Shown here in pieces: positions 8,073 through 64,000 of a stretch of DNA of 64,000 bases. Made by a program: the position numbers and the translations under genes. Source of the DNA: Candidatus Uhrbacteria bacterium CG10_big_fil_rev_8_21_14_0_10_50_16 (GTDB taxonomy: Bacteria; Patescibacteriota; Patescibacteriia; UBA9934; UBA11717). Below the pieces are notes generated by a model. The model was not told where the DNA came from, searched no databases, and worked only from the letters and a program-made list of their open reading frames with translations. The DNA is taken from the NCBI GenBank assembly GCA_002774875.1, contig PCYM01000002.1, positions 14,781 through 78,780 of the forward strand, written 5' to 3'. Positions within the stretch are counted from its first letter, which is position 1, and each line of letters starts with the position of its first letter.

Positions 8073-8255
8073 TGCCTACAATATAGCCTAAACTGTTACG
8101 AAAGTCACAGCATGGCATAAAAATCTACCAAAGCACTGACCCCGTTGTCAGCGAGCTTTGGTAGGTCGTATGTCGAAAGGCATGCGTTGGGAGTAATCCC
8201 ACGAGCTGGCAGCGGGTTTTGTGCTGTCCGCTCGAATAAATCCTACCAAAGCGCT

Positions 8256-24184: not shown

Positions 24185-25666
<1,482 letters not shown>

Positions 25667-28989: not shown

Positions 28990-29300
28990 ATAGGTAGTCC
29001 TTTTACAACAACAAAATCAATGACTCGAGAAGTAGTACTCTTATTACTCCCTGCAAAGCGAATCCGGGATGGTGGAAGCCGGATCATAGAATAAGAAGAA
29101 ATTGGACTCGATGAGATGACGCGTGCTTTTGTGCGTGTCCGGCATCCCCCGTAACCTTGGGATAATGTGTATCTACGGAGCACATGAAAGAGCCTTCTTT
29201 TTTTAGAAGGAATTGAGGTGGTACCGCGGTGGTGGAGAACCCCCGTCCTCAGACAACGTCTTGTTGTCTTTGGGCGGGGGTTTTTTGCCCCACGCAAGGA
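28990..29300 (+). promoter_or_regulatory. T-box riboswitch leader with intrinsic terminator
   Basis: Canonical T-box sequence AATTGAGGTGGTACCGCGGTG at ~29205-29225 (17/19 to AAUUAGGGUGGUACCGCGG); ~300-nt leader; terminator ccccc gtcc...gggcggggg + T6 at ~29242-29290 just before the SD of the downstream operon. Confidence 0.65.
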
Positions 29301-39857: not shown

Positions 39858-40619
39858 ATGTTAAACAAATGGATCAACACGTTTATTCAACTTGGGTTGA
39901 GTGAAGTGGAATCAAAAATCTACTTTGCGGGGTTGGAGTTGGGGCCCACGAGCGCGCAAGAATTAGCACGCAAGGCGAGTGTCTCACGCACGGCCACGTA
40001 CGATGCGATTAATGCGCTCAAAGGGAAGGGATTGTTATCGACGTTTCAAAAGGGAGCAAAAACGGTGTTCACAATCGAGCAGCCTGAGGACGCGCTGCGT
40101 TACTTCCGCAAACAATCGCGACAAATGCGAGATAAGATTGAACTCATGGAAGAGGCCGTGCCGGAAATGAAAAGCCTCTCACCTGGGGAGAAGCCGTTTA
40201 TTCGATTTTACGAGGGACCCGAGGCATTGCGCAACTTATTTGCGGACGTACAGGCCGTCAATCCTCCTTCCATCTACGAGTTTGTAAATATTCAGGATGT
40301 GTATCATTCCGTGCACGACGGGACACCAGAGGTTAAAAAAATATTTGCCGAAGCTCACAATGTATCAGATCCATCACGGCAAGATATACGTCTCCTACAT
40401 ACGGGAAATGTACGAGAAAATTATCAACATCGTAAAGGCGTAGCGTTTCGACAACTGAACAATTCATTTGGTGAGTTTCACGGCGACATCTGGATTTATG
40501 GCGACCGAGTTGTGTTCACCTCATTTAAGGGATCCATTATGGCAATTATCATTCAAAGTGAAATGTTTTCTCAAACTGCCCGTGTCATGTTTGAAGCCGC
40601 CTGGTCTATAAGCAAATAA
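39858..40619 (+). CDS. TrmB-family transcriptional regulator (wHTH + C-terminal domain)
   Basis: N-terminal winged-helix EVESKIYFAGLELGPTSAQELARKASVSRTATYDAINALKGKGLL; paralogue of 45951..46757. Confidence 0.6.
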   Translation: MLNKWINTFIQLGLSEVESKIYFAGLELGPTSAQELARKASVSRTATYDAINALKGKGLLSTFQKGAKTVFTIEQPEDALRYFRKQSRQMRDKIELMEEAVPEMKSLSPGEKPFIRFYEGPEALRNLFADVQAVNPPSIYEFVNIQDVYHSVHDGTPEVKKIFAEAHNVSDPSRQDIRLLHTGNVRENYQHRKGVAFRQLNNSFGEFHGDIWIYGDRVVFTSFKGSIMAIIIQSEMFSQTARVMFEAAWSISK

Positions 40620-41079
40620 CAAACCGCGACCTGCCAGGTGGGCGGATCGCGGTCACAAGATCTGGCGGATCGCGGGGCGCGGACGTCGGAGAACCGACGC
40701 CGCACCCCGCTCTCCGCGCTTCTCAGCCGTTCATGGTGCCCTCCTGTGGCCATGGCTGGTGAAGCTATTCTTCCAACAAAGTTAAGGTCTCTGTGAAGAC
40801 CTGTCCTTGTAGATGCGACGCCGAGGGGGCGTCGTGGTTGGAGTCGCGTGGTACGCGACTTCCGGCCGGGTCTTTCACCCGGCGGAGGGCTGTGGGGGGG
40901 GCTAGCCGCCGAACATGGCGTACCCCTTTCCAGGTTTGATGAACGCATGAGCGCGTTCAATCAAAACCATCTATACCACAATTTTGCGGCTTTGTCAAGC
41001 GTAAGAGGCGTGTTTGTTCGCCTGCGACGTACTAAATAATCTTAAATTTACTGTGAGTTGTCCGCCAAAAGCGTACAAA

Positions 41080-41110
41080 ATAAACCGCTAACTTAAGCGG
41101 TTTATTTTAA
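41080..41110. terminator. Bidirectional terminator aaaccgct-aactt-aagcggttt
   Basis: Perfect 8-bp stem with A/T-rich flanks. Confidence 0.6.
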
Positions 41111-41126
41111 TTCTGGCAACAATGGA

Positions 41127-41155
41127 TTGACACAATGCCTCTTCCATGTTAATCT
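41127..41155 (+). promoter_or_regulatory. Sigma70-like promoter TTGACA-N17-TAATCT at the entrance of the high-GC island
   Basis: Read directly; no convincing ORF for the next ~1.1 kb. Confidence 0.5.
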
Positions 41156-42304
41156 GCTTTGTTCACTGATAGAGCACAACGCCTCAGTGATCCATGCATC
41201 TTACAAACAAACAGTGAAACAGGGCTTGTAACAACTACGTTGCAAGAACAAAGGACGATCGATATGGATCGTTCTCCTGGAATGTGCGTATGGCTGTAGG
41301 AAATTTCATGTAACGGCACTACAACGTACGGCAATCTGGATTAAAAAGGCTGGATCCATGGTCTACAACACCGTTTGAGACACATGTGTCCCCGCCACGC
41401 GGCCCCGCCGCGGATCTCTCGCTAGCACCACATAGACGCCATGCTATAGCTGGTAGCGGGAGATCCGCGGCAGAGGACGCAACCTGTCCAATCCGCACAA
41501 GAACTCTGTTGCCGGTGGGACGGCAAAACAGGGTGGGTGCTTGGCACACCCAGACCATCTGGTCAAAGATAACTCCTGGTAACAGGAGGAAACTCATGGC
41601 GGTAACACCATGGGGATGCGAAAGCATTCATAGCGCCACGCCTATCATGACGTATCCACGTTGGGTCGGGAGACCCCTCCAGGATCGGTACTGGAGTTGA
41701 TAGGTGCTTGCGGGTTGGAACCCTGCAAGAGTGAGTGCGGACAGTGGATTCTCCAATCCACGTTTGCACAGCAATGGTTTGGGCTACGCCCTCAACTGAT
41801 CGCAACCATTTTGTTACCGGCATCGCGCCCGAGTGGCGCGACCAATCAACCACCGGGTTGGTTTGCTGGGGCAATGGCGATCAGGTTGTATGCAAGGAAG
41901 GGCCTAACCGGTGAATCGTTCGTGTCAGTCATCTGCACGGCGATGATCCGGATAAAAAGGCGGATGGTTTGGGCGCCCCCCATTCCGTCCGCTCAACCAG
42001 GAGTCCCAGGCCGGCCAGCCAGGATTCTGAAGTTGAGAACTTGCATACTCCTAAGGCTGACACCCATCAGCCGACCGAATTCCATCGGGTTTTTCCGCTC
42101 AGACGGGCGGAAGACACACGGAAGGGTCAAAGACTGGTTGGCGGTCGCAACCGTCTCGCACAGCCTGAGAAGGCAACCAGCCGCGGGAGTAAGCACTTGC
42201 GTTACTTATTCCCACCTTATCTTCGCGCCCGAGCTTGCAATTCTGCTTGCTCGGACGCTCCACAAACTGCTTGAGTAACTCGAGCTGTTCGTGGAGGAGG
42301 AGCG

Positions 42305-42460
42305 ATGGCCATCACCCCCAGCTACGGAGTGGTGCGTCACGGCGCGGTCTGGTTTACCACCAGCCCGCAGCAGCTCAAGCGTGAGGCCCGTGAAAAGGCC
42401 GATCGCGAGCTGCAGGCGAAGCGACCTTGTGTCGTAATCCGCCGCCGCGCGCACCGGTAG
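42305..42460 (+). CDS. Small high-GC hypothetical protein (51 aa)
   Basis: GGAGGAGG SD immediately upstream of ATG; GC3-rich; below the track length cut-off. Confidence 0.35.
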   Translation: MAITPSYGVVRHGAVWFTTSPQQLKREAREKADRELQAKRPCVVIRRRAHR

Positions 42461-42681
42461 TCCTCATACGCTCGTGGGTCACACGAGCGTAAAAGGGTGC
42501 CGCAAACACCCTGCCCTAGCCAGGCAAAACCCCCGGGCTGCAGGTCCCATCTTGATTGAAAATTCCTGCACAACGTGGACCTGGGCACTGCTCGGGTCTT
42601 CCACAAAGGCGCGATCCTGTATGGCATTTTTGTGGAGGATACAACTCACTTACTGTTCTCGGAGGAGAACGAGGAGGTTCC

Positions 42682-42972
42682 ATGCGTCGATACACATTGT
42701 TCAGTAGCTGGCGTCGATCTGAGCTCGAGATCCCCTCCTCCGGGAGAAGGATCAAGAAGCTGGATAGGACGTTCGAGGTCGGCACCCCGCGGTACCTGAA
42801 GTGGCTCCGGCGCATGTTCCCCGATCAGGTTTACCTGGTCGTGGCGCAGGGAACCATGCCTCAAATGCTCGACCGCGTTCGCGCGCGGTTTGGACAGGAG
42901 GAGGTTCCCGGCGTGGTGTCTGCCACCGTTCAGCTTCAGCGGGACATCCGAGAAAACCCAAGTCTCTACTGA
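42682..42972 (+). CDS. Small high-GC hypothetical protein (96 aa, basic)
   Basis: GAGGAGG SD + ATG 42682 inside track ORF 42556..42972; preceded by a repeat-leader copy. Confidence 0.45.
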   Translation: MRRYTLFSSWRRSELEIPSSGRRIKKLDRTFEVGTPRYLKWLRRMFPDQVYLVVAQGTMPQMLDRVRARFGQEEVPGVVSATVQLQRDIRENPSLY

Positions 42973-42990
42973 AAGGAGGTGCTTCCGTGG

Positions 42991-43055
42991 CCTGAGGAGA
43001 ATCGCTTCTTGGGCCCTGCATAGAGTCTTTGCAAAACGAAGGTTCTATGGAGGAA
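42991..43055 (+). repeat. Repeated ~65-70-nt leader module (copy R1) with conserved 11-bp stem-loop ending in the SD
   Basis: GCCTGAGGAGAATCGCTTCTTGGGCCCTGCATAGAGTCTTTGCAAAACGAAGGTTCTATGGAGG is ~80% identical to the copy at 43711-43790; compensatory base changes keep the CAUAGAGUCYU/ARGRUUNUAUG stem. Confidence 0.55.
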
Positions 43056-43293
43056 AGGAAGTGTCAAATACCCCAGGTGGTATTGACGGCACTTCTGGCG
43101 CCTCACGACCATGTGCTCTCACCAGCACAAATTGGTCACAAAAGAGACGAACAGCAATGCGTCGCGGCTGCCAGTAGGAGGTATACGTACGAGGCCTGAG
43201 AAGATTCACTTCTCGGGCACTCTACAGAATTCTAGGCAGAAAAGGATTCTGAGAGTTAATCAATGTACGCAACAAGAGATTGGGAGGTGTGCG

Positions 43294-43569
43294 ATGAACA
43301 AGCTCAATGTGGTTGAGATAGGTCTTCGTAATGGCAAGGGTCTGAGCTTCACCTGCGGCAAGCTCTATGTCCGCATTACGGTAGACGGCCTCACGCTGCG
43401 CGTTGAGACCAACCTGCCGGTGCGGGCCAAGGAGCTGGCCGAGTCCGAGACGACCCCCGTTCGCCGGTCCGTGTTTGACCGCGCCGATGAGCTGCGCCGA
43501 GGAGGACGGCACAGCGACGTGGACGTGGCGGCAACAGGAGGGCGGCGGGTGATCCGACGCAGAACGTAA
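43294..43569 (+). CDS. Small high-GC hypothetical protein (92 aa)
   Basis: GGGAGG SD + ATG 43294 inside track ORF 43111..43569; preceded by a partial leader-module copy at 43194-43238. Confidence 0.45.
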   Translation: MNKLNVVEIGLRNGKGLSFTCGKLYVRITVDGLTLRVETNLPVRAKELAESETTPVRRSVFDRADELRRGGRHSDVDVAATGGRRVIRRRT

Positions 43570-43710
43570 ACCCCAGCCCGCGATCGGAACACGCGGCAAA
43601 GGCTGTTCCACCCCTCGCCCTCGCGAGCAGACCCCTTGCGTTTGAGCCACGCAATCGGGTCCCGTCCAGAACGGGGTAAGCCATCGCTCCGGGCGGTCAC
43701 GCGCCCCCTT

Positions 43711-43790
43711 GCCTGAGGTCAACTGATTCTCGGGCACTGCATAGAGTCCTTGCTGCACGAGGATTGTATGGAGTCTACAACTTTTGGAGG
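43711..43790 (+). repeat. Repeated leader module (copy R2) abutting the ATG of the 189-aa gene
   Basis: GCCTGAGGTCAACTGATTCTCGGGCACTGCATAGAGTCCTTGCTGCACGAGGATTGTATGGAGTCTACAACTTTTGGAGGTCACC then ATG. Confidence 0.55.
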
Positions 43791-43795
43791 TCACC

Positions 43796-44362
43796 ATGCG
43801 CCTGTTCGGACTTTCTGACTGTTACGATGCGATGGATCTGTACGTCTGCATCAACGGCAAGCACGTGCTCCTGTCCCGGTCGGAGGGGTGGGTGTCTGCC
43901 CGTGTGAAGCCGTGTGACAAGAGCTGTGTTCCCACGGAGATTGATCTGGAGGTGTGGCTGCAGAAGGCACCGCGGAAGGTCCGCAAGGATCCTCGGCTGC
44001 TCGCGTTCGTGGAGCAAGGAGTGCCCGCGTACACGGTGCACCGTTCCTTCGCCAAGCGCTCCGGCGGCAGCGAGACGGTCTGGATCGGCAACCTGGCGAT
44101 CACGTGGAGCTTTTGCGACGCGTCGCGGTTGAGCCAGCGGGACCGGTGGCGAGACCGCTTTGAGATCTGCCCCATCGGGGAGAATGATCTGCTGTGGTGG
44201 ATCCGCGACGTCCTCCCGTCCTCAAGACGGCTCGAAGACGTTGCCGAGGAGATCCGTCGCAATGACGATCTGCTCCTGAGCGAGCTCCGGCAGCGCGGCA
44301 CTCCGGACGCAAACACCCTGGACGCGGATGCCTTCCGGCAGTTTCTCTTGAACCTGCTGTAA
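43796..44362 (+). CDS. High-GC hypothetical protein (189 aa)
   Basis: Start at MRLFGLSD with GGAGG SD supplied by the leader module; terminator gccaaaatccc...gggatttggc+T7 at ~44400-44460. Confidence 0.5.
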   Translation: MRLFGLSDCYDAMDLYVCINGKHVLLSRSEGWVSARVKPCDKSCVPTEIDLEVWLQKAPRKVRKDPRLLAFVEQGVPAYTVHRSFAKRSGGSETVWIGNLAITWSFCDASRLSQRDRWRDRFEICPIGENDLLWWIRDVLPSSRRLEDVAEEIRRNDDLLLSELRQRGTPDANTLDADAFRQFLLNLL

Positions 44363-44592
44363 GAAGACGATCGTGCTCCCCAGCTCCCCGGTTCTCGGGT
44401 TGAGCCAAAATCCCTACGTCAATCCCATCTGTTCTTCTGGTGGGATTTGGCTTTTTTTGCTACATTTCTATTTAATTTTCATCGCCCAACAAACCTAGGG
44501 CGGCGGCATTTATTTATAAACAATACGACCTGAGACTTGATTATCTTATTTTTCTTTTAGGCTAAAATTAGCCATTTTTCCATGGTCACCTC

Positions 44593-44621
44593 TTGACAAA
44601 AGGTGTTTTTTATGGTATAAG
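44593..44621 (+). promoter_or_regulatory. Sigma70-like promoter TTGACA-N17-TATAAG in AT-rich spacer driving the next high-GC ORF
   Basis: Read directly. Confidence 0.5.
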
Positions 44622-44761
44622 ATTGTTACGCCAAAGGTGGAATAGGTTCACCTAACGCGCAGACGATCCGGAACGCTGATTCATACAGCATTCTGAAAGA
44701 CGATAACGGATCGGTCTCGTGCAAGCGAGATACCTATGAACGGGGCTTACCACCCCACGGA

Positions 44762-45460
44762 GTGATGATGGAAAAGGAAACCAACGTCATGGTGCGCCTC
44801 CCGGCGCGAGAATGGGAAATCCTCATCAAGGAGGTCCTCGCCGCAGAGGCAGATCTCCCCTCGTGGGAGTGGTGCAGAACAAGCGGAGCCCCCCGCGAGG
44901 AGGAGGGGCGGCGGCGCGATGCCGCCAGGACCGCTCTGAGGGTGGCCATGGGTCGCTCACCGGCCAACGAGAGGATGGAGGACCGTCTGGCCAACAAGGC
45001 CGGGTGCGTCCTCCTCGTGGACGGCCGGTTTGAGATCGGGGGCTCCGTTGGGGAGCGCAAGCTCCTGATCAACGGCCGAATCCGGGCCACCCTCCGCCTG
45101 GGGGGCCGTCTGGACGGCCGCGTGGATGTCGTCACCCGGGAGGCGGCCGAGGCCGCCTACCAGGAGCGACGACAGGCCTCCCGCCACGCCGAGGCCGCCT
45201 ACAAGGCGGCCCGGCAGGAGCTCATCCACGAGCTCCTGCAGGCGGACCTGGCCGAGCCCGCCGACTTCGGTCGGTGGACATACGCCTACGGGCAGTTCGG
45301 TGGGTATTTCTACCGAACGGGGGTGAGCGGCCCCCGCGTCGCCGCCAACTCCGCCTTCGTGGCGGCGTTCGGCCGCGACTGGAGGAAGACCGCCAACGAT
45401 CGGCGTTGCGAGAAGATCGAGCTCGAGCTCGATCGTCGGCTCTACGGCGCCCGCTACTAG
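44762..45460 (+). CDS. High-GC hypothetical protein (232 aa, Arg/Ala/Glu-rich)
   Basis: GGAG SD then ATGATG; GC3-saturated; followed by a terminator-like hairpin + T-run at ~45517-45575. Confidence 0.5.
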   Translation: MMMEKETNVMVRLPAREWEILIKEVLAAEADLPSWEWCRTSGAPREEEGRRRDAARTALRVAMGRSPANERMEDRLANKAGCVLLVDGRFEIGGSVGERKLLINGRIRATLRLGGRLDGRVDVVTREAAEAAYQERRQASRHAEAAYKAARQELIHELLQADLAEPADFGRWTYAYGQFGGYFYRTGVSGPRVAANSAFVAAFGRDWRKTANDRRCEKIELELDRRLYGARY

Positions 45461-45950
45461 CCCCCCAAAAAAATCCTGAGCAAGCAGGAACCCTTCGGAG
45501 CACATGTCTTGCTACATGTCTCCACCTACGCCCCGAACCACCCCCGTGCAAAATCACGGTCTGGAGGTCCGGGGTTTTGCGTTTTAAAATAGCTGTCTCT
45601 CTTAAACACCCGCATTTTTTTAACATGTTTTCCTGCGTGAGGAGATGCGACGGGTGAAGAAGATGAGATACATCTGACCGCCCAACCAAGAACCGACCCC
45701 CATCGATACGTCGATGAAGGGCGACGTCACTCGGTGGGCGGTTCTTGTTTTTGTTCGTCTCGCAGTAAACATCATTGATACGCCAGGCGAATATTTGAGA
45801 GGATAGTGATATAGGTTGAGTATTTCTACCAGGTGATCACTAATGACTTATGCCGTAGAATTATCCTCTACATCTCGATAAGCACGCATTGCCCTTTTTT
45901 CAGTACTTTGCTAAGTTACATACATGAGTAAGTAGATTTTATTTCCCCAA

Positions 45951-46757
45951 GTGAGCATAATCCCCTATCTTATGAGTGAGCTCAACACAATCAAAACGGC
46001 GCTACAACACCTGCATGCAAGCCCGAACGCCATTTCGTTCTTTCTAACGAGCTACAAGCTGAGTCGTTCTTCCGTTGGACTGATTGCCAAGACCGCCAAG
46101 ATGGATAGGTCTTCGGCATACATCGCCTACGAGCAACTCAAAGAGCTAGGTCTCATGGAGGAGGAGACGGTTGGCAGACGAAAGGTGGTTTGGACACGCG
46201 AACCAAAGGCCGTCATTGCTCGTCTACGCACCGAGATCCGCCGCATGCGAAGGCAGGTAGAGTCTATCGAAGAAGCAATGCCGGAACTCCTCGCACAGTA
46301 TGGCAGTCGTAATGACCGCCCCGTTCTGCAAGTATTTACTGGAAACGACGGTCTCCATCAGATAAAGAACGATATCTTGTCGGGCTCGGGCTTTGAGCTT
46401 CTCCTCATGTCCAACTTCCGTGAGGAGGCTGAGGTTTTTTCACGAGAGGAGCATGACAGCTTTATTCAACAGCGACTCTCGCAAAACATCACACTGCGTC
46501 TCATTGCGACAGACTCTCTCGAGGCACGCAAGATCCAAAGCTCCGATGCAAAAAATCATCGTGAAACTCTTGTAATAGAAGGTGATGCCCCATTTAATAA
46601 TGAAACCTACATCTACGGCAATAAGGTCGCGATGCTCTCATTCAATGAGCAAACTGGCGTTATTGGCTTTATTATTCAGTCAAAGGAGTTTGCAGATGCG
46701 CAGCGCTGGATGTTTGAGCAGATTTGGAAACAATTAAATACAAGTAACAAGACTTGA
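45951..46757 (+). CDS. TrmB-family transcriptional regulator, paralogue of 39858..40619
   Basis: C-terminal IYGNKVAMLSF...GFIIQSKEFADAQRWMFEQIW parallels IYGDRVVFTSF...AIIIQSEMFSQTARVMFEAAW of the first copy; start may be Met 45972. Confidence 0.55.
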   Translation: MSIIPYLMSELNTIKTALQHLHASPNAISFFLTSYKLSRSSVGLIAKTAKMDRSSAYIAYEQLKELGLMEEETVGRRKVVWTREPKAVIARLRTEIRRMRRQVESIEEAMPELLAQYGSRNDRPVLQVFTGNDGLHQIKNDILSGSGFELLLMSNFREEAEVFSREEHDSFIQQRLSQNITLRLIATDSLEARKIQSSDAKNHRETLVIEGDAPFNNETYIYGNKVAMLSFNEQTGVIGFIIQSKEFADAQRWMFEQIWKQLNTSNKT

Positions 46758-46794
46758 TAGCAGCTCACAACCGTTATCAAGGGACTATTAATCT

Positions 46795-47547
46795 ATGCAG
46801 ATCATTGTAAATAACCTTGATACGGAATATACGGATAACGGAGCAGGCGCAACAATCCTCTTGCTACACGGTTGGGGTACAAATGCGCGTTCGTTCAGCT
46901 CACTCACAAATATCCTAAGCTCCAACAATAGGTGCATATCTCTTTCTTTGCCCGGTTTCGGAAAGAGCGAGAACCCTCCTAAGGCATGGGCAGTTGAGGA
47001 CTACGCTGCGTTTGTTCGTCAGTTTCTAATAAAGCTCGACATAGACAATCCAGATGTCCTTATTGGACATTCATTTGGTGGTAGGATCGCCGTTAAGGCA
47101 GTTGCAACGCTCAAAATCTCTCCCAAGAAACTAGTGTTAATTGCTTCTGCTGGATTGGCAGAGGAGACCAAGCACGCATACTTGGCAACGGGAATCATAA
47201 AGATCGGAAAGATCGTCACTTCGATCCCGCCTTTTTCGATTGCACGAAATACGTTGAAGCGCGTAATGCGACGCGCACGTGCAAGCAAGGACTATACGGA
47301 AGCCGGTGCGCTCAAAGACACGTTCGTTAATGTAGTCAATGAACATCTTGGAACAGATGCAAAGAAAGTACGTACTCCAACGTTGCTTATTTGGGGTAAG
47401 GAGGACGCCGAAACACCACTTACAGAGGCAAACGCCTTCAAGCAGAGTATCCCCAACTCTGAGCTTTGCATTATTCCAAACGCCGGTCATTTTGTCTTTC
47501 AGGAACAGTCCCGTACCGTCGCAAGAGCCATAAAACATTTCCTATGA
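46795..47547 (+). CDS. Alpha/beta-fold hydrolase
   Basis: HGWG oxyanion region and nucleophile elbow GHSFGG. Confidence 0.7.
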   Translation: MQIIVNNLDTEYTDNGAGATILLLHGWGTNARSFSSLTNILSSNNRCISLSLPGFGKSENPPKAWAVEDYAAFVRQFLIKLDIDNPDVLIGHSFGGRIAVKAVATLKISPKKLVLIASAGLAEETKHAYLATGIIKIGKIVTSIPPFSIARNTLKRVMRRARASKDYTEAGALKDTFVNVVNEHLGTDAKKVRTPTLLIWGKEDAETPLTEANAFKQSIPNSELCIIPNAGHFVFQEQSRTVARAIKHFL

Positions 47548-48974
47548 CTACCTCTTTTCTATCTCGCTATCGTCCTCGATTCTTACGCTCACTCGTATAC
47601 ATGCTCCAAGCCACGGAATACAACATTGGTGATTACATCAACTGGCTCCACCGAACGCGTGACTTTAGTAAGGTCGAGAAGCGCAAGCAACTTAAGCAAT
47701 CGCACAAAGCGCTTGCTCTCCTGTACCTTGGCAGACTTCTTTGGCTCGCGCTCATACTGTTAGGCACTTCTCTTTCTGTTTATGGGTCAGCTATTGCTAC
47801 AAAACTCTTAGGCATCCTCGTACTCATGCTGTCTCCGTTTCTATTGGCGTACATAATCACGATCCCCCTATTTATTCTCAAACTATTTGTACAAAAACCC
47901 ATCGAAGCACTCATAATCTGGCGTGCGACGCAAACAATGGCACGTCACAAAGGGGTAAAAATTGCTATTGCTGGTAGTTACGGAAAAACATCCATGAGAG
48001 AAATGCTCCACACCGTTTTGTCTGAGGGTAAGCACGTTGCAGCCCCTCCACATAGTTACAACACGCCGCTAGGCGTTAGCGCTTTTGTTAAAACACTCAA
48101 AGGAGATGAGAAAGTGTTGATCTTTGAGCTGGGAGAATACTACCCGGGTGATGTAGCAAAGCTTTGCAAGATCGTGCAACCCGACATCGGGGTCATTACT
48201 GGAATCAATGAGGCACACCTGCAGAAATTTAAAACATTAAAGCAAACCGCCAAAACGATCTTTGAGTTAGCCGAGGCGTTACCATCGCAACCAGTTTATA
48301 TAAATGGAGAGAGTCAAATTGCGTGCACATATGCAAAAGAATCTCACATCCTTTATGACCAAAATGGAATTGGGAGCTGGCACGTACATAATCCAGCAAC
48401 AGACCTATCGGGCACATCTTTCACGCTCACAAAGGATGACCAACAGATCAAGCTCAAATCAAAACTTCTCGGCATGCATCAGATTGGTCCATTAGTCGCG
48501 GCAGTCGACATCGCTCACAAGCTCGGCCTAACAAACGAACACATTCAGTCCGGCGTTGCCAATACAAAACCATTTGAGCATCGCCTCGAACCAAGAGTTG
48601 ATGAAAGCGGTATTACAACGCTTGACGACAGCTATAACGGTAACCCCGACGGAGTACGTGTCGTCATCGACTTTCTTAAAACCCTCAAGGGTCGTCGATT
48701 CTATGTAACGCCCGGGCTCGTGGAGATGGGCTCGCGCTCAAAAGAGGTTCACATGAAGATTGGCCATCAGCTCGCTAGCGCGAAGATAGAGCGCGTCGTA
48801 CTAATAAGCAACTCTGTCACCCCCTATATTGAGCAAGGGTTGCGAGAAGCCAACTACAAGGGAGAAATTATTTGGTTCGATGATGCTCTCAAAGCCTACG
48901 CAACCTTGCCTAGCATGACCGTGAAGGGCGACATTATTCTTCTTCAAAACGATTGGCCCGATCAATATGCCTAA
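47544..48974 (+). CDS. murF: UDP-N-acetylmuramoyl-tripeptide--D-alanyl-D-alanine ligase MurF with N-terminal membrane extension
   Basis: Mur ligase P-loop IAGSYGKTS and C-terminal Mur ligase domain; ATGA overlap with the upstream gene. Confidence 0.75.
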   Translation: MTTSFLSRYRPRFLRSLVYMLQATEYNIGDYINWLHRTRDFSKVEKRKQLKQSHKALALLYLGRLLWLALILLGTSLSVYGSAIATKLLGILVLMLSPFLLAYIITIPLFILKLFVQKPIEALIIWRATQTMARHKGVKIAIAGSYGKTSMREMLHTVLSEGKHVAAPPHSYNTPLGVSAFVKTLKGDEKVLIFELGEYYPGDVAKLCKIVQPDIGVITGINEAHLQKFKTLKQTAKTIFELAEALPSQPVYINGESQIACTYAKESHILYDQNGIGSWHVHNPATDLSGTSFTLTKDDQQIKLKSKLLGMHQIGPLVAAVDIAHKLGLTNEHIQSGVANTKPFEHRLEPRVDESGITTLDDSYNGNPDGVRVVIDFLKTLKGRRFYVTPGLVEMGSRSKEVHMKIGHQLASAKIERVVLISNSVTPYIEQGLREANYKGEIIWFDDALKAYATLPSMTVKGDIILLQNDWPDQYA

Positions 48975-50112
48975 CAAGAAAACAATCGCAGTAATCTTTG
49001 GTGGGAAAAGTGCCGAGCATGACGTCTCTATTATCACGGCCCACACGCCCATCATCCAGTCACTTGTTGCTATGGGCAAGTACAACATCCTACCTATCTA
49101 TGTTACAAAGGACGGTGATTGGTATTCCGATGAAGCAATGAACGATATGGCTTACTTTAGGAAAGGTGGTATTGAAGGCAAGCTCAAGAAATTAAAGCCT
49201 CTTCAACTGTCACTCGGGAATGCTTTGTCTATTATTTTTCCAGGCATCATCCCGAAGACTGTAAAAGTCGACATTGTATTTCCAGCTATGCACGGAACGT
49301 TCGGCGAAGATGGGAGTCTCATGGGGGTTCTGCGCATGGCAAACGTTCCGTTCGTCGGTTGCGATCTTGCCGCATCTGCCGTTGCCATGGACAAGGTATT
49401 CACCAAGCAAATTGCAGAAGCAGAAGGCATCCCAGTTGTGCCGTATGTTTGGTTTACCAAACAAGAATGGCTATCCGATATGGACGTTTGCATCAAGAAG
49501 ACCGCCGGACTAACGTGGCCACTGTTTGTAAAGCCGGTACACCTTGGCTCATCTATTGCTATTACAAAAGTAAAGAATCAAACAGAACTCAAACGCGCTA
49601 TTGAAGTCGCATTTCATTATGACGACAAAGTGCTGGTTGAGGAGAGTGTAGACAATCTCATTGAGGTCACGCTTCCAATCATGGGGAATGACCAGCCCCA
49701 GGTTGCCAGCATTGAGCGACCTTTGAACAAGACAGAGTTTTTTAACTTTGAAGACAAATATCTGTCTGGCGGGAAAAAAGGATCGGGAGGTAACAGCGCT
49801 TATAGTGAAGTCCCTGCAAAAATATCATCAGATCTTGCACACAAAGTAGAAGAGCTGGGAAAACAAGTCTATCGCGTTCTAGGATGCACGGGCACCGCAC
49901 GCGTTGACTTCCTTATTAACTCAAAGCGAGAGCACATATTCGTTAACGAGGTGAACACGCTCCCCGGGAGTCTCTACCATCACAACTGGAAGATGTCGGG
50001 TGTGTCTAATATTGATCTTGTACGCAGACTTATCGAGCTCGGAGAGGAAAAATTCCTAAGAGAATCAACAATCGTACGTGTGTTTAAATCCAACGTGTTG
50101 CACAAAGACTAA
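48967..50112 (+). CDS. ddl: D-alanine--D-alanine ligase
   Basis: ATP-grasp Ddl pattern (IAVIFGGKSAEHDVSI..., FVNEVNTLPG). Confidence 0.8.
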   Translation: MPNKKTIAVIFGGKSAEHDVSIITAHTPIIQSLVAMGKYNILPIYVTKDGDWYSDEAMNDMAYFRKGGIEGKLKKLKPLQLSLGNALSIIFPGIIPKTVKVDIVFPAMHGTFGEDGSLMGVLRMANVPFVGCDLAASAVAMDKVFTKQIAEAEGIPVVPYVWFTKQEWLSDMDVCIKKTAGLTWPLFVKPVHLGSSIAITKVKNQTELKRAIEVAFHYDDKVLVEESVDNLIEVTLPIMGNDQPQVASIERPLNKTEFFNFEDKYLSGGKKGSGGNSAYSEVPAKISSDLAHKVEELGKQVYRVLGCTGTARVDFLINSKREHIFVNEVNTLPGSLYHHNWKMSGVSNIDLVRRLIELGEEKFLRESTIVRVFKSNVLHKD

Positions 50113-50168
50113 TGGCATATGCTCTCCCACCCTGCAACGAAAAACACCCCTTTCGGGGTGCCTTTCGT

Positions 50169-50244
50169 TGGAGCGGGTAGAGGGAATCGAACCCTCATCT
50201 CAAGCTTGGAAGGCTCGCATAATAAGCCACTATACTATACCCGC
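50169..50244 (-). tRNA. tRNA-Gly (anticodon UCC)
   Basis: Reverse complement GCGGGTATAGTATAGTGGCTTATTATGCGAGCCTTCCAAGCTTGAGATGAGGGTTCGATTCCCTCTACCCGCTCCA; anticodon loop CTTCCAA; T-arm GAGGG-TTCGATT-CCCTC. Confidence 0.75.
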
Positions 50245-50475
50245 ATATTGTTTAATGTACCTTCTTCCCTCTCCCGACTTCAGCCACTTTTCTCGAATGC
50301 GACCTACTATAAAGTCAGGATGAGTTTCCGTTAGAATAACACGGAACGGCCGTTTGTGTTTTGTTGATCGATTTCTTCCGGAATTGTGCTCACTTAATCG
50401 TCGATCAAGATCTTTACACATTCCTATGTACAGAGTCCCATCAAATTCACTCACCAGCGCATAGACAGTTATCAT
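50230..50475 (-). CDS. GIY-YIG nuclease-domain protein, YhbQ/UPF0213-like (81 aa)
   Basis: ITVYALVSEFDGTLYIGMCKDLDRRLSEHNSG matches the GIY-(x10)-YIG...R...H.xG core; its last 15 nt overlap the 5' end of tRNA-Gly. Confidence 0.65.
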   Translation of the reverse strand: MITVYALVSEFDGTLYIGMCKDLDRRLSEHNSGRNRSTKHKRPFRVILTETHPDFIVGRIREKWLKSGEGRRYIKQYAGIV

Positions 50476-61797: not shown

Positions 61798-62185
61798 GGC
61801 CGTTCATTAAAACCTGTATAACATTAGATTGAAGGAGGAAGAGGAGCGTTGGAAACCGGCTAGATTCGTTTAGCATGGCGACAGTGTTCTTGAGTCATCT
61901 ATCGGTGAAACTGGGTCTCACTCACTCTCTCCGAACAGATGCCTCGCGAATGTAGATTACCTTGGTAAACCTACATTCATCCCCTTCAATCTGCTGTGAT
62001 ACAGCAGGCGTTTCCCGCTTCACCCCAGAAACCTGTCGTTTTTGGCGATTTTCTGTGTTGAGGTGGGAGAACGAGCGTTCTTTCCATATTTAGCCTGCAA
62101 CCCCGTGGTGGGGAAGTTGGCTTTTTTGATACGTCGCCGCGTGTACGGCACGTTTTGCGGCAATGCCGTGGAAGAGGAGAGGGAG

Positions 62186-64000
62186 ATGAGCAAGACCATG
62201 CCGATCCGCCTGCGCCTGGCGGACAACGAGGAGGTCAGCGAGGAGATGCCCACCGGGCTCTCGTTCGGGGACATCCGGACCCTCGGGTTGCTGGAGGTCG
62301 CCGAGATCGGAACGCGCCTCGCGCTCCCCTCGGGGATCGAGGTAGTCCGGACAGAGTCCGGCCTGGGGTTCATCACCAAGACCGCGCCCGTGAGCACGGC
62401 CGCCCCGGCTCCCAAGGCCGAGGTGGTCCAGACCGCGCGCCCGGCGGCCAAGGAGCCGAGGGTGACCGCCCAGGTGGCGGACATCTTCGGCGGATCCGTC
62501 GCCGTCCCCTCGGGGCGGCTGGCGGTGGACGCCTCCGTCCCCGTCCCGGCACCCAAGGCCGAGGTGGTCCAGACCGCGACCGCGCCCCCGGCGGCCAAGA
62601 TCGAGATCAAGACGGGCTCCGCCCAGGTGGCGGACATCGTCGAGGACGAGGCCCGCTTGGAACGGGAGAAGAAGGCCGCCGCACACGCGGCCAACCTCGC
62701 GGCCCGGGCCGCGATCATCCCCGGACTGGTCGTCGCCCTCGTGGCGCTGGCCAAGGAGTTCCTCAAGGAGGGCGGCCACATGGCCGGCATCTTCCTGGAG
62801 GAGGCCTACGTCAAGTCCGGCCCCTTTGCCACCCGCGTGGTGGCCGAGGGGATCGAGACCATCGAGAACTCGGTCGTCATGGACGGCCGCGCCATCCTGA
62901 ACGCCCTCCGGGCGCTCAACTCCAACCACCCCCTCCGGGGGATGGTGGACGCGATGGTCCTGCACGGCCCCCATGCCGTGCACTACGATCGGATCTTGAT
63001 CAACCGGAACCCCAAGGGGAAGGTCTGGATCCTCCCCTTGTGGGCGCCAGTGGCCTCGGCCGTCACCGACCGGCTCAGGAACGAGCTGGTGGGCGTCGCC
63101 CGCTACACGAAGCTCAAGAATGAGCTTCGCCGCCGCCTCTCGGGCGGCGCCGTGGTCAAGGGCGGGCGGAAGATCGCCCGCCACCCCAACGGGGGCGTGG
63201 ACTGGGACAGGCTCCACGACAAGTTCGAGGGAAAGGAATCCCTCGAGGGCCGCAAGGTGGCTTGGGGCCACATTGCCCTCATCGGCGACTGGGCCTTCTG
63301 CCTGGACGCCACCGACTACGACAAGACGACGGTGGTCGCCGTCGCCGCGGAGCTCACGGACGAGGGCCGCAAGGAAGAACAGGCCAAGGTGCTCCAGGAC
63401 ATCAACTGGGCCAACCGGTCCGTGAACGGGGTCAAGTTGATCCCCTTCAACACCCGGCAGACCCCCGAGGGGGCCTACCGGGTGGACCGGATCCTGAAGC
63501 AGGACGGCACCTGCCCGATCAGCGGGCAGGAGATCCCCCAGCAGAAGGGGGGCGCCTTCCACTTCCTGGTCTACGCCCCCCGTGGTGGGAGTGATCCCGC
63601 CCAACTGGTGGAGGAAATGGGCTACGTCCCCCTCCGCCCCTGGGTGGGCTACGCCCTCCTGGAGGACCTCTCCATCCTCCCCACCGACTGGGAAGTGTGG
63701 CAGAGGTGGGAGATCGTGACGCGGTTCTCCGCCACGGTCTCGTTCGTGGCGGACAAGAGCATCAAGCTCGAGCCCGCCTCACCTCGCAAGAGCAAGGGGA
63801 GCGTCTCCCTGAGCTCCCGCAAGCTCAAGGAGGAGCGCTCCGACGCCGATGCCAGGAAGGCGCTCGGCGGGGGCAAGAAGAAGAAGGGCGGGGGGTCCAA
63901 GAAGACCACCCGCCGGCTCCGAGCACGGACTCCAATGTCGGTCACCGACCGCCTGATCGAGTCCTGGGAGCACAAGTCGCCCGAGGAGTTCGGGATCATG
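62186..64000 (+). CDS. Large high-GC hypothetical protein (at least 605 aa; 3' end beyond window) with tandem ~45-aa PAPKAEVVQTA...AQVADI repeats and Lys/Gly-rich segment
   Basis: Frame-2 ORF translated by hand with no stop from ATG 62186 (GGAGAGGGAG SD) to 64000; absent from the track (no stop in window); track ORFs 62155..63123(+), 62090..63604(-) are its shadows. Confidence 0.6.
   Translation, partial: MSKTMPIRLRLADNEEVSEEMPTGLSFGDIRTLGLLEVAEIGTRLALPSGIEVVRTESGLGFITKTAPVSTAAPAPKAEVVQTARPAAKEPRVTAQVADIFGGSVAVPSGRLAVDASVPVPAPKAEVVQTATAPPAAKIEIKTGSAQVADIVEDEARLEREKKAAAHAANLAARAAIIPGLVVALVALAKEFLKEGGHMAGIFLEEAYVKSGPFATRVVAEGIETIENSVVMDGRAILNALRALNSNHPLRGMVDAMVLHGPHAVHYDRILINRNPKGKVWILPLWAPVASAVTDRLRNELVGVARYTKLKNELRRRLSGGAVVKGGRKIARHPNGGVDWDRLHDKFEGKESLEGRKVAWGHIALIGDWAFCLDATDYDKTTVVAVAAELTDEGRKEEQAKVLQDINWANRSVNGVKLIPFNTRQTPEGAYRVDRILKQDGTCPISGQEIPQQKGGAFHFLVYAPRGGSDPAQLVEEMGYVPLRPWVGYALLEDLSILPTDWEVWQRWEIVTRFSATVSFVADKSIKLEPASPRKSKGSVSLSSRKLKEERSDADARKALGGGKKKKGGGSKKTTRRLRARTPMSVTDRLIESWEHKSPEEFGIM

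What the first reader, a model, noticed from the sequence alone, without database searches (positions are those of the whole stretch)
42580..44362. Array of small orphan genes each preceded by a conserved ~70-nt stem-loop leader module
Copies at 42991-43055 and 43711-43790 are ~80% identical. Both start GCCTGAGG and contain TTCTYGGGCMCTGCATAGAGTC...TATGGAG.

Each copy can form an 11-bp hairpin (CAUAGAGUCYU / ARGRUUNUAUG) in which two positions covary (C-G to U-A, and G.G to G-C). Each ends in the GGAG that serves as SD for the next ORF. Weaker copies lie at 42580-42642 and 43194-43238.

The downstream ORFs are unrelated in sequence: 96, 38 (GTG 43061-43177), 92 and 189 aa. So the conserved part is regulatory. 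It is either a shared operator (half-sites CATAGA/TCTATG ~19 nt apart) or a cis-acting RNA hairpin gating translation.

This is the architecture of a co-regulated phage-like or accessory module and is not explained by any listed feature.
Basis: seen in the sequence. Interest (0 to 1): 0.75.

Follow-up and report, generated by a model that had tools for sequence, protein, structure and literature searches.

The report
Two-hairpin RNA leaders before orphan genes
A small operon of orphan genes in a Candidatus Uhrbacteria (CPR) genome carries a diverged copy of one two-hairpin RNA element in front of each gene, and in a related genome a three-gene block has been gained or lost exactly between two identical copies, so the element is probably both an RNA signal between genes and a recombination joint.

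Summary
The repeat is real and larger than reported. There are five sense-strand copies: E 42227-42296, D 42579-42638, A 42990-43052, B 43194-43256 and C 43711-43773. Each is two abutting hairpins, P1 of 10 bp and P2 of 11-16 bp ending in GGAG. A covariance model built from A, B and C alone recovered D and E and nothing else in 64 kb.

A, C and D fold only on the sense strand. G.U pairs outnumber A.C 15:3, and no substitution against a second genome breaks a pair. This points to RNA, not a DNA operator.

The modules contain no promoter, terminator or Rfam match. The real ribosome-binding sites mostly lie 22-43 nt downstream. The 38-aa ORF is not a gene.

The array belongs to a 3.8-kb GC-rich island in Candidatus Uhrbacteria. 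It follows a roughly 1.1-kb highly structured non-coding leader. The island is far less diverged between two Uhrbacteria genomes than the neighbouring host genes are.

In the second genome a 1.4-kb three-gene block lies between two identical 76-nt B copies.

My best reading is an intercistronic RNA processing or stability element that also supplies portable homology for cassette gain and loss. T4-type phage PeSL cassettes are the closest analogue, but the modules are not members. The function is inferred, and only two genomes carry the family.

The parts
41127..41155 (+). Sigma-70-like promoter candidate: TTGACA, 17 nt, TAATCT, with TG before the second hexamer. It is the only candidate upstream of the array.
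   Evidence: My own relaxed scan scored it 9/12 and found no comparable site inside or next to any module. It is 100% conserved in L014. Its activity is inferred, not shown.
41160..42226 (+). Long, highly structured non-coding leader. The conserved core is about 41390-42300.
   Evidence: No ORF appears, even if one stop codon is read through. The fold z-score of 41380-42300 is -9.7 on + and -7.9 on -. It is about 1% diverged from L014, and 6 of 7 substitutions at predicted paired positions keep the pair via G.U. No Rfam match.
42227..42296 (+). Module E: P1 CCGAGCUUGCA/UGCUUGCUCGG and P2 CUCCACAAAC/GUUCGUGGAG. It lies 8 nt before the ORF0 start.
   Evidence: Found by a model built without it (19.1 bits, E 0.0036). 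Fold z -5.1.
42305..42460 (+). ORF0, 51 aa, orphan.
   Evidence: Called by gene finders in other assemblies. GC by codon position 0.71/0.53/0.78. pN/pS 0.081/0.165. No Pfam or PHROGs hit.
42579..42638 (+). Module D: P1 ACCUGGG/CUCGGGU and P2 CUUCCACAAA/UUUGUGGAGG.
   Evidence: Model R1 gives E 0.0017 in the window and 1.4e-4 for the L014 copy. Fold z -3.4 on +, -0.5 on -. The L014 G-to-A change turns a U.G pair into U-A.
42682..42972 (+). ORF1, 96 aa, orphan. It has a premature stop in L014.
   Evidence: GC by codon position 0.61/0.45/0.74.
42990..43052 (+). Module A: P1 GCCUGAGGAG/CUUCUUGGGC and P2 CAUAGAGUCUU/AAGGUUCUAUG, then GAG.
   Evidence: Fold z -4.0 on +, -0.1 on -. Identical in L014 over the 63-nt module core (the hits score the same) while the flanks differ.
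43061..43177 (+). 38-aa GTG ORF, probably not a gene. I read it as the spacer of an emptied cassette.
   Evidence: GC by codon position 0.50/0.74/0.42. pN/pS 0.060/0.066. Not called in any of 6 assemblies.
43189..43264 (+). Module B as the 76-nt unit that is duplicated in L014. The two-hairpin core is 43194-43256.
   Evidence: Fold z -5.2. In L014 the 76-nt unit is present twice, 100% identical, flanking a 1411-nt three-gene insert.
43294..43569 (+). ORF3, 91 aa, orphan.
   Evidence: pN/pS 0.015/0.068, with an in-frame 6-nt indel in L014. GC by codon position 0.68/0.48/0.75.
43711..43773 (+). Module C: P1 GCCUGAGG/UCUCGGGC and P2 CAUAGAGUCCU/AGGAUUGUAUG, then GAG.
   Evidence: Fold z -3.9 on +, +0.4 on -. 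The only change inside the module in L014 is in the P2 loop.
43796..44362 (+). ORF4, 188 aa, orphan. It is the last gene of the array.
   Evidence: The only match in two database-wide searches is its own cluster. pN/pS 0.032/0.069. GC3 0.81. The structure model is unusable, pLDDT 46.
44404..44458 (+). Intrinsic terminator: stem GCCAAAAUCCC ... GGGAUUUGGC followed by U7. No module follows ORF4.
   Evidence: Read from the sequence and folded. Similarity to L014 ends at 44421.

Best explanation
The modules are a family of sense-strand RNA elements inside one polycistronic transcript.

**Shown**
- Five copies in the window, and seven in a second Uhrbacteria genome, share one architecture. A 10-bp hairpin P1 directly abuts an 11-16-bp hairpin P2 whose 3' side ends in GGAG.
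- All copies are on the coding strand. Each lies 8-43 nt (50-65 nt for copy X in L014) upstream of the start codon of a translational unit.
- The structure is kept through compensatory and G.U-mediated changes, and it exists only on the sense strand for three of the copies.
- The modules contain no promoter and no terminator.

**Inferred**
- The array is read as one operon. It would run from the promoter-like site at 41127, through a 1.1-kb structured leader, to the terminator at 44404-44458.
- In that RNA each module would act as an intercistronic processing and stability element. It would be a defined, stable double hairpin that marks or caps the 5' side of each cistron.
- It would also insulate that cistron's ribosome-binding site from misfolding with upstream RNA. 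A common RNase or RNA-binding protein may recognise it through the conserved helix bases GCCUGAG/CUCGGGC and the conserved U.G.

**Second role, shown as a pattern with the mechanism inferred**
- The 60-76 nt of shared sequence is portable homology at which cassettes are gained or lost.
- One genome has a three-gene block between two identical B copies. The other has a single B copy.
For: - **Family and significance:**
- **Independent recovery:** a model built from A, B and C alone recovers D, E and a further copy X inside the L014 insert. All are on the sense strand in intergenic positions. No other hit in the 64-kb window has E below 0.3, apart from antisense echoes of the same modules.
- **Structure:** in the fitted alignment 92% of cells pair, against 31-51% when the partners are slid. 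16 of 21 pairs change on both sides. In the ungapped A/B/C alignment two pairs change on both sides.
- **Strand:**
  - Fold z-scores on + are -3.4 to -7.3 for all six types.
  - On - they are -0.1, +0.4 and -0.5 for A, C and D.
  - G.U to A.C is 15:3 by module type.
- **Selection:**
  - Against L014, module A has no change over its 63-nt core.
  - B has A-U to G.U and D has U.G to U-A.
  - All other changes are in loops.
- **No promoter or terminator at the modules:**
- **Genes downstream are probably real:** GC by codon position and dN/dS of 0.2-0.5.
- **Cassette polymorphism:** it is bounded by a perfect 76-nt repeat.
- **Analogue:** PeSL cassettes of T4-type phages flank orphan genes and mediate the same kind of insertion and deletion (PMC2839356).
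Against: - No transcript data exist, so co-transcription, processing and stabilisation are all inferred.
- Only two genomes carry the family, which gives about six independent sequences. The covariation statistics are therefore weak, and the larger alignment was fitted to the model.
- E and X fold equally well on both strands.
- Conserved helix sequence could equally mean a DNA-binding protein.
- The distance to the start codon varies, so no single translational mechanism fits.
- Module A is followed by no convincing gene.
- Loss of the three-gene block could be plain RecA or slippage recombination between any 76-nt repeat. It says nothing specific about module function.
Confidence: 0.45

Rival explanations
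1. Translational operator or thermometer. The P2 hairpin, or a protein bound to it, gates ribosome access to the next ORF.
For: - P2 always ends in GGAG or GGAGG, and in the predicted folds this tail is paired with the linker.
- For E and ORF0, and for A and the 38-aa ORF, this GGAG lies 8 nt from the start codon.
- One module sits in front of each translational unit, including only one for the overlapping ORFa/ORFb pair in L014.
Against: - ORF1, ORF3, ORF4, ORFa and ORFc have their own GGAGG-type sites 22-65 nt downstream, outside the hairpins.
- The 38-aa ORF is not a gene.
- The spacing to the start codon is not conserved.
Confidence: 0.2
2. Site-specific recombination sites of an integron-like cassette platform. 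The modules would fold as single-stranded DNA and be recombined by an enzyme encoded elsewhere.
For: - The array consists of promoterless orphan ORFs in one orientation, each with a structured repeat whose sequence drifts while the structure stays.
- A cassette-sized insertion or deletion is bounded by two identical modules.
- The island moves between species.
- G.T pairs are tolerated in folded single-stranded DNA.
Against: - No recombinase is found in the island: none of its ORFs hits Pfam or PHROGs.
- There are no RYYYAAC / GTTRRRY boxes, and the shape is two hairpins rather than one long imperfect hairpin (read).
- The last cassette, ORF4, has no module after it. The modules therefore sit on the 5' side, not the 3' side like attC.
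- Identical 76-nt repeats are enough for homologous recombination.
Confidence: 0.12
3. DNA operator sites for a repressor, for example one of the flanking TrmB-like proteins.
For: - Both stems are imperfect inverted repeats with conserved sequence.
- A TrmB-family gene adjoins the island in both genomes, and a second, weaker TrmB-like gene lies at 45951-46757.
Against: - No promoter lies at any module.
- There are 15 G.T against 3 A.C mismatches, and A, C and D show no stable structure or symmetry on the other strand.
- All copies are in one orientation.
- No copy lies upstream of either TrmB gene or anywhere else in the window.
Confidence: 0.08
4. Co-transcriptional signals for RNA polymerase. 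These would be put-like processive antitermination or pause elements repeated along the operon.
For: - Two adjacent stem-loops of about 65 nt resemble my recollection of HK022 put RNA. This rests on my own knowledge and was not tested.
- Mobile elements do use structured leader RNAs for antitermination, such as Tn916 canT, pLS20 conAn2 and the eps EAR element (PMC11658703).
Against: - Known elements of this kind act once, near the promoter, not before every cistron.
- No terminators lie between the cistrons for such an element to override.
- There is no sequence or Rfam relationship.
Confidence: 0.07
5. Selfish or neutral repeat: a MITE-like or duplicated spacer with no function of its own.
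For: The family is confined to one island in two genomes. Copies differ greatly in sequence.
Against: - Structure is kept despite about 40% sequence divergence between copies.
- No pair-breaking substitution occurs between the genomes, while neighbouring spacers reach about 20% divergence.
- Orientation is strictly one-way and every copy sits upstream of an ORF.
- No terminal inverted repeats or target duplications are visible.
Confidence: 0.08

Closest known systems
PeSL (promoter-early stem-loop) mobile regulatory cassettes of T4-type phages (Arbiol et al. 2010, PMC2839356; Comeau et al. 2014, PMC4122927)
   Same: - Short conserved regulatory cassettes sit in front of small orphan genes in a plastic region.
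- Related genomes differ by insertion or deletion of 'cassette plus ORF' units, with one cassette left behind.
- The cassettes act as portable homology (compared).
   Different: - PeSLs consist of a strong sigma-70 promoter plus a terminator stem-loop. These modules have neither.
- These modules consist of two abutting hairpins that appear to work as RNA.
- The host is a CPR bacterial chromosome, not a phage.
- There is no sequence similarity.
Intercistronic RNase III processing hairpins of the phage T7 early operon (own knowledge)
   Same: A related hairpin recurs between small genes of one polycistronic mRNA. There it defines mRNA ends and stability.
   Different: - T7 sites are single, roughly 20-bp hairpins with an internal loop.
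- Here there are two helices of 10 and 11-16 bp.
- Cleavage is untested and there is no sequence relationship.
Integron attC sites and cassette arrays, including arrays without an integrase (own knowledge)
   Same: Promoterless orphan cassettes lie in one orientation. Their structured repeats keep the fold while the sequence drifts. Cassettes are gained and lost at the repeats.
   Different: - No R''/R' core boxes, and two hairpins instead of one.
- The repeat is 5' of each ORF and is absent after the last ORF.
- No integrase is seen.
Structured leader RNAs of mobile-element operons (Tn916 canT, pLS20 conAn2, eps EAR; PMC11658703)
   Same: A long structured RNA directly follows the promoter of an operon on a laterally moving element. 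This applies to the 1.1-kb leader rather than to the modules.
   Different: No homology and no tested antitermination. This leader is two to three times longer.

Membership tests
PeSL cassettes (T4-type phages) | Contains a consensus sigma-70 early promoter (-35 and -10) | tested here: not met
   The consensus scan and my relaxed scan find no promoter in or beside any module. The only good sites are at 41127 and 44593.
PeSL cassettes (T4-type phages) | Stem-loop that acts as a transcription terminator | tested here: not met
   Hairpins are present but none is followed by a U run. No terminator-like site was reported at the modules.
PeSL cassettes (T4-type phages) | Flank orphan ORFs, with insertions and deletions between related genomes bounded by the cassettes | tested here: met
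   All the ORFs are orphans. In L014 a 1411-nt three-gene insert lies between two identical 76-nt B units.
Integron attC site | R'' (RYYYAAC) and R' (GTTRRRY) core sites at the two ends of one imperfect hairpin with extrahelical bases | tested here: not met
   I see no such boxes at the module ends. The fold is two separate hairpins.
Integron attC site | Site lies 3' of each cassette ORF, with an integrase and attI at the head of the array | tested here: not met
   No module follows the last ORF and the first ORF is preceded by one. No island ORF hits any Pfam family. The rest of the genome was not searched for an integrase.
Any Rfam 15 family (including hammerhead, twister, pistol, hatchet, ROSE, C4) | Covariance-model match at or near the gathering score | tested here: not met
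   No match over the modules at the gathering thresholds or at E up to 5 on 40500-46000. The hammerhead core CUGANGA fits copy A only (read).
RNase III intercistronic processing site (T7 type) | Recurrent hairpin between cistrons of one mRNA | tested here: inconclusive
   The position and recurrence fit. Co-transcription is inferred only from the absence of internal promoters and terminators.
RNase III intercistronic processing site (T7 type) | Cleavage by RNase III within about 20 bp of duplex RNA | not testable with these tools
   This needs in vitro cleavage or mapping of RNA ends. Here the helices are 10 and 11-16 bp and might stack.
TrmB-type operator | Palindromic duplex site overlapping or next to a promoter and bound by TrmB | tested here: not met
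   No promoter at the modules. There is a strand-asymmetric mismatch pattern. Binding itself is not testable here.

The most novel reading that the evidence does not exclude
The island may be an RNA-centred mobile cassette platform of CPR bacteria. A roughly 1-kb highly structured RNA would act as ribozyme, guide or antiterminator at the head of an array. Each cassette would carry a two-hairpin adaptor that this RNA, or a host factor, recognises for processing or for cassette capture. That would be a functional counterpart of an integron without a protein integrase.
Probability: 0.07. Interest if true: 0.9.

Novelty: new variant of a known kind. Interest (0 to 1): 0.5.

Why it matters
CPR bacteria have very small genomes and few described mobile elements or regulatory RNAs.

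- This locus shows an RNA motif that is not in Rfam.
- It shows a way in which orphan genes are packaged with a portable structured leader and swapped between species, much as in the plastic regions of T4-type phages.
- It also carries an adjacent non-coding RNA of about 1 kb with strong signs of selection on its structure.

If the modules are processing or stability signals, they would be a compact natural 'insulator' part for polycistronic expression. If they are recombination sites, they would point to a new cassette system.

Tried and rejected
**Collection scans for more copies**
- IMG/VR with a P1 pattern gave 7 hits with no P2, which I take as chance.
- IMG/VR and the JGI metagenomes with a P2 pattern gave 0 and 6 hits. 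None of the six has a P1.
- The metagenome scan did not return the source samples either, so that collection may not hold them.
- The genome scan gave one true locus, L014, and two chance hits.
- A 25-nt piece of the leader gave nothing in IMG/VR.

**Other searches**
- blastn of the whole island against phage and plasmid records found nothing.
- The six other assemblies carrying ORF4 are essentially identical: five at 100%, and L010 with one mismatch plus a short indel in ORF5. They give no useful population variation.
- Stop-codon recoding as an explanation for the ORF-less 41130-42300 was rejected. No frame opens.

**Protein searches**
- Concatenated queries were a poor idea. The window's ORF0+1+3+5 returned nothing, not even themselves, so that search is uninformative.
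- The L014 ORFa/c/b query found only a 287-aa fusion homologue of ORFa+ORFb. It lies on a contig with a classical promoter and no module.
- The AlphaFold model of ORF4 had pLDDT 46, so I ran no fold search.

**Motif ideas rejected on the sequence**
- Hammerhead core, attC boxes, a Xer/dif-like site (spacers of 5 and 9 nt), loop-loop kissing between P1 and P2, and a conserved upstream mini-ORF.

**Further checks**
- A second model that included D and E found no further copies.
- An RNA duplex test between the modules and the leader timed out. It was reduced to k-mer sharing only.
Full report
**1. Source and setting**

- ORF4 of the array matches only 'hypothetical protein COV06_01975, Candidatus Uhrbacteria bacterium CG10_big_fil_rev_8_21_14_0_10'. 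The window is therefore from a CPR (Parcubacteria) genome.
- The same ORF4 lies on eight contigs from several assemblies. The six I read match this locus: five at 100%, and L010 with one mismatch and a short indel in ORF5.
- The array sits in a GC-rich stretch (57-59% against about 48%) between two TrmB-like genes.

**2. The observation**

- The repeat is real. Identities over the 63-nt core are A-C 78%, A-B 62% and B-C 59%.
Two of its pairs change on both sides between copies.
- A second hairpin was missed. P1 is GCCUGAGRAG, a 5-nt loop, then CUUCUYGGGC, with a U.G pair conserved in A, B, C and D.
- In the predicted folds the few bases between P1 and P2 pair with the GGAG tail. The two helices therefore abut directly.

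**3. More copies**

- A covariance model built from A, B and C only was run with filters off over the window and the related locus L014.
- Apart from A, B and C, the non-echo hits with E below 0.05 were:
  - D at 42579-42637 (E 0.0017; 1.4e-4 for its L014 copy);
  - E at 42227-42296 (E 0.0036);
  - X, a copy inside the L014-specific insert (E 0.038).
- All of these are on the coding strand, in intergenic spaces upstream of ORFs. These E-values are rough.
- A second model that included D and E found nothing further.
- Every translational unit of the array therefore has a module before it:
  - E before ORF0;
  - D before ORF1;
  - A before a 136-nt spacer;
  - B before ORF3;
  - C before ORF4.
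- In L014, B' precedes the overlapping ORFa/ORFb pair, X precedes ORFc and B'' precedes ORF3.
- ORF4 is followed by an intrinsic terminator and no module.

**4. RNA or DNA?**

| Module | Fold z, + strand | Fold z, - strand |
|---|---|---|
| A | -4.0 | -0.1 |
| B | -5.2 | -3.7 |
| C | -3.9 | +0.4 |
| D | -3.4 | -0.5 |
| E | -5.1 | -5.4 |
| X | -7.3 | -7.2 |

- By module type there are 15 G.U pairs and 3 A.C oppositions.
- In the fitted alignment 92% of cells pair, against 31-51% when the partners are slid. 16 of 21 pairs change on both sides. That alignment leans towards the model.
- Against L014, changes inside the modules are few and none breaks a pair:
  - A is identical over its 63-nt core;
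  - B has A-U to G.U;
  - D has U.G to U-A plus loop changes;
  - C has one loop change.
- Neighbouring spacers reach about 20% divergence.
- Together this favours a structure read on the sense strand, meaning RNA, or less likely folded top-strand DNA.

**5. What the modules are not**

- There is no Rfam match at the gathering thresholds or at E up to 5.
- There is no sigma-70-type promoter. Promoters of this lineage look classical: TTGACA-17-TATAAG at 44593, and TTGACA-17-TATATT on contig L023. Nothing similar lies in a module.
- No U run follows either hairpin.
- The GGAG tail is the working ribosome-binding site only for ORF0. ORF1, ORF3 and ORF4 have their own GGAGG 22-43 nt downstream.
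- The 38-aa ORF after A is not a gene.

**6. The genes**

- ORF0, ORF1, ORF3 and ORF4 have strong ribosome-binding sites.
- Their GC3 is 0.74-0.81 with GC1 above GC2. Their dN/dS is 0.2-0.5 on few substitutions.
- ORF3 differs from its L014 copy by an in-frame indel. ORF1 has a premature stop in L014.
- None has a Pfam or PHROGs family.
- ORF4 has no homologue even in a full HMMER search of 1.84 billion representatives.

**7. The island moves, and the modules are its joints**

- L014 (Candidatus Uhrbacteria UBA11717) shares window 40590-44421 at 92-99% identity.
- Synonymous divergence compares as follows:

| Region | pS |
|---|---|
| TrmB gene on the left (host) | 0.71 |
| RuvC (host) | 0.27 |
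| Island ORF1, ORF3, ORF4 | 0.04-0.07 |
| Island leader (read in the frame of a spurious ORF) | about 0.01 |

- The island has therefore been exchanged between the two lineages much more recently than they diverged, or it is under unusual constraint.
- Inside it, L014 has 1411 extra bases (58% GC) with three ORFs, one of them a divergent receiver domain.
- That insert lies between two 100% identical 76-nt B units. The window has a single B.
- This is the pattern described for PeSL cassettes in T4-type phages, where recombination between cassettes deletes or inserts orphan genes and yields mini-circles (PMC2839356).
- The PeSL membership test fails on the promoter and terminator features. The likeness is in architecture and evolutionary role only.

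**8. Upstream context**

- Between a promoter-like site at 41127 and module E lie about 1.1 kb with no ORF, even if one stop codon is read through.
- This stretch is extraordinarily structured: z -9.7 for 41380-42300, and z -2.5 to -5.8 in every 200-nt window from 41200 to 42300.
- It differs from L014 by about 1%. Six of seven substitutions at predicted paired positions keep the pair through G.U.
- It has no Rfam match.
- It shares two exact 10-mers with module B, at 42163 and 42021. Its 3' part may hold decayed modules.
- I regard it as a probable new large non-coding RNA and the 5' leader of the array.
- Large structured leaders on mobile elements can act in processive antitermination (PMC11658703). 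That is only a lead.

**9. Mechanism**

- Shown:
  - the family and its two-hairpin fold;
  - the sense-strand bias;
  - the position before each cistron;
  - the absence of promoter and terminator features;
  - the cassette polymorphism at B.
- Inferred:
  - a single transcript;
  - the modules as intercistronic processing, 5'-stabilising or insulating elements, possibly bound by one factor;
  - recombination by homology.
- I put about 0.45 on this combined reading. The rivals get 0.2 (translational operator), 0.12 (site-specific recombination site), 0.08 (DNA operator), 0.07 (polymerase signal) and 0.08 (neutral repeat).

**10. Limits**

- Only two genomes carry the family. No metagenome or viral relatives were found with exact-pattern scans.
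- Models could not be run over public collections.
- The statistics rest on about six independent sequences.

Noticed in passing
window 41160-42300 (core 41390-42300), + strand: About 1.1 kb with no ORF, after a TTGACA-17-TAATCT site. Fold z is -9.7. It is about 1% diverged from a genome whose neighbouring host genes have pS 0.27-0.71, and 6 of 7 substitutions at paired positions keep the pair via G.U. No Rfam match. It is probably a new large structured RNA, and arguably more novel than the modules.
   Followed up: partly
window 40620-41110: A second GC-rich, highly structured stretch lies directly after the TrmB stop codon (z -4 to -7 on both strands) and is 97-99% identical in L014. It ends in a perfect bidirectional terminator hairpin, AAAUAAACCGCU...AGCGGUUUAUUU, at about 41079-41108. 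Strand and function are unknown.
   Followed up: no
window about 40590 and 44421; L014 8000-2255: The shared island has sharp borders. Identity jumps from about 75% to about 99% some 30 nt before the TrmB stop codon and ends just before the terminator. Inside the island, two patches (41260-41390 and 42380-42500) are 20-30% diverged, so the island is a mosaic.
   Followed up: partly
L014 2255-2031 compared with window 44421-50234: In UBA11717 the island ends about 150 nt from tRNA-Gly. The window's 44421-50163 is absent at that place; it holds ORF5, the second TrmB-like gene, a hydrolase, a Mur ligase and Ddl. This may be a rearrangement or an assembly difference. L014 also carries a run of N there.
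   Followed up: partly
window 44593-45460: A near-consensus promoter (TTGACA-17-TATAAG with TG) is followed by a 130-nt leader and a 230-aa orphan ORF of about 70% GC (GC3 0.86). The DNA is itself strongly structured (z -2.5 to -5). There is only a weak DUF7438 hit, and the ORF is not part of the island shared with L014.
   Followed up: no
window 42163-42172 and 42021-42030: Exact 10-mers of module B (GCCTGAGAAG and AGGATTCTGA) occur inside the leader. At about 42000-42030 a P2-like hairpin, GGAGUCC...GGAUUCU, can form. These may be relics of older modules.
   Followed up: partly
L023 460-1323 (Logan SRR23086399 contig): A 287-aa protein is 58% identical to ORFb of L014 over its C-terminal, receiver-like half. 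Its N-terminal half looked ORFa-like by eye, but I did not align it. It has a classical promoter and no module, so ORFa and ORFb may derive from a single gene.
   Followed up: partly
window 50230-50475, - strand: A small GIY-YIG gene next to tRNA-Gly is 96% identical between the two genomes (pS 0.125). That is less diverged than RuvC beside it, so it may itself be mobile.
   Followed up: no
window 8085-8202; 29011-29253; 24185-25665: A LOOT RNA (78 bits), a T-box leader (96.8 bits, just above its threshold) and a 16S rRNA gene with no 23S rRNA match anywhere in the 64-kb window.
   Followed up: no
window 4601-6259 and 62090-63604: Other GC-rich patches (65-68% GC) hold long orphan ORFs of 552 and 504 aa with no Pfam family. 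The genome seems to carry several GC-rich orphan islands.
   Followed up: no
L001 13486-13511, - strand (IMG/VR UViG 3300021964_012334): One viral contig matches CCTGAG-N9-TTCTTGGGCACTGCATA, seven bases beyond the search pattern, and is followed by a TGCTATAAT box. It has no P2 and is probably a chance match.
   Followed up: no
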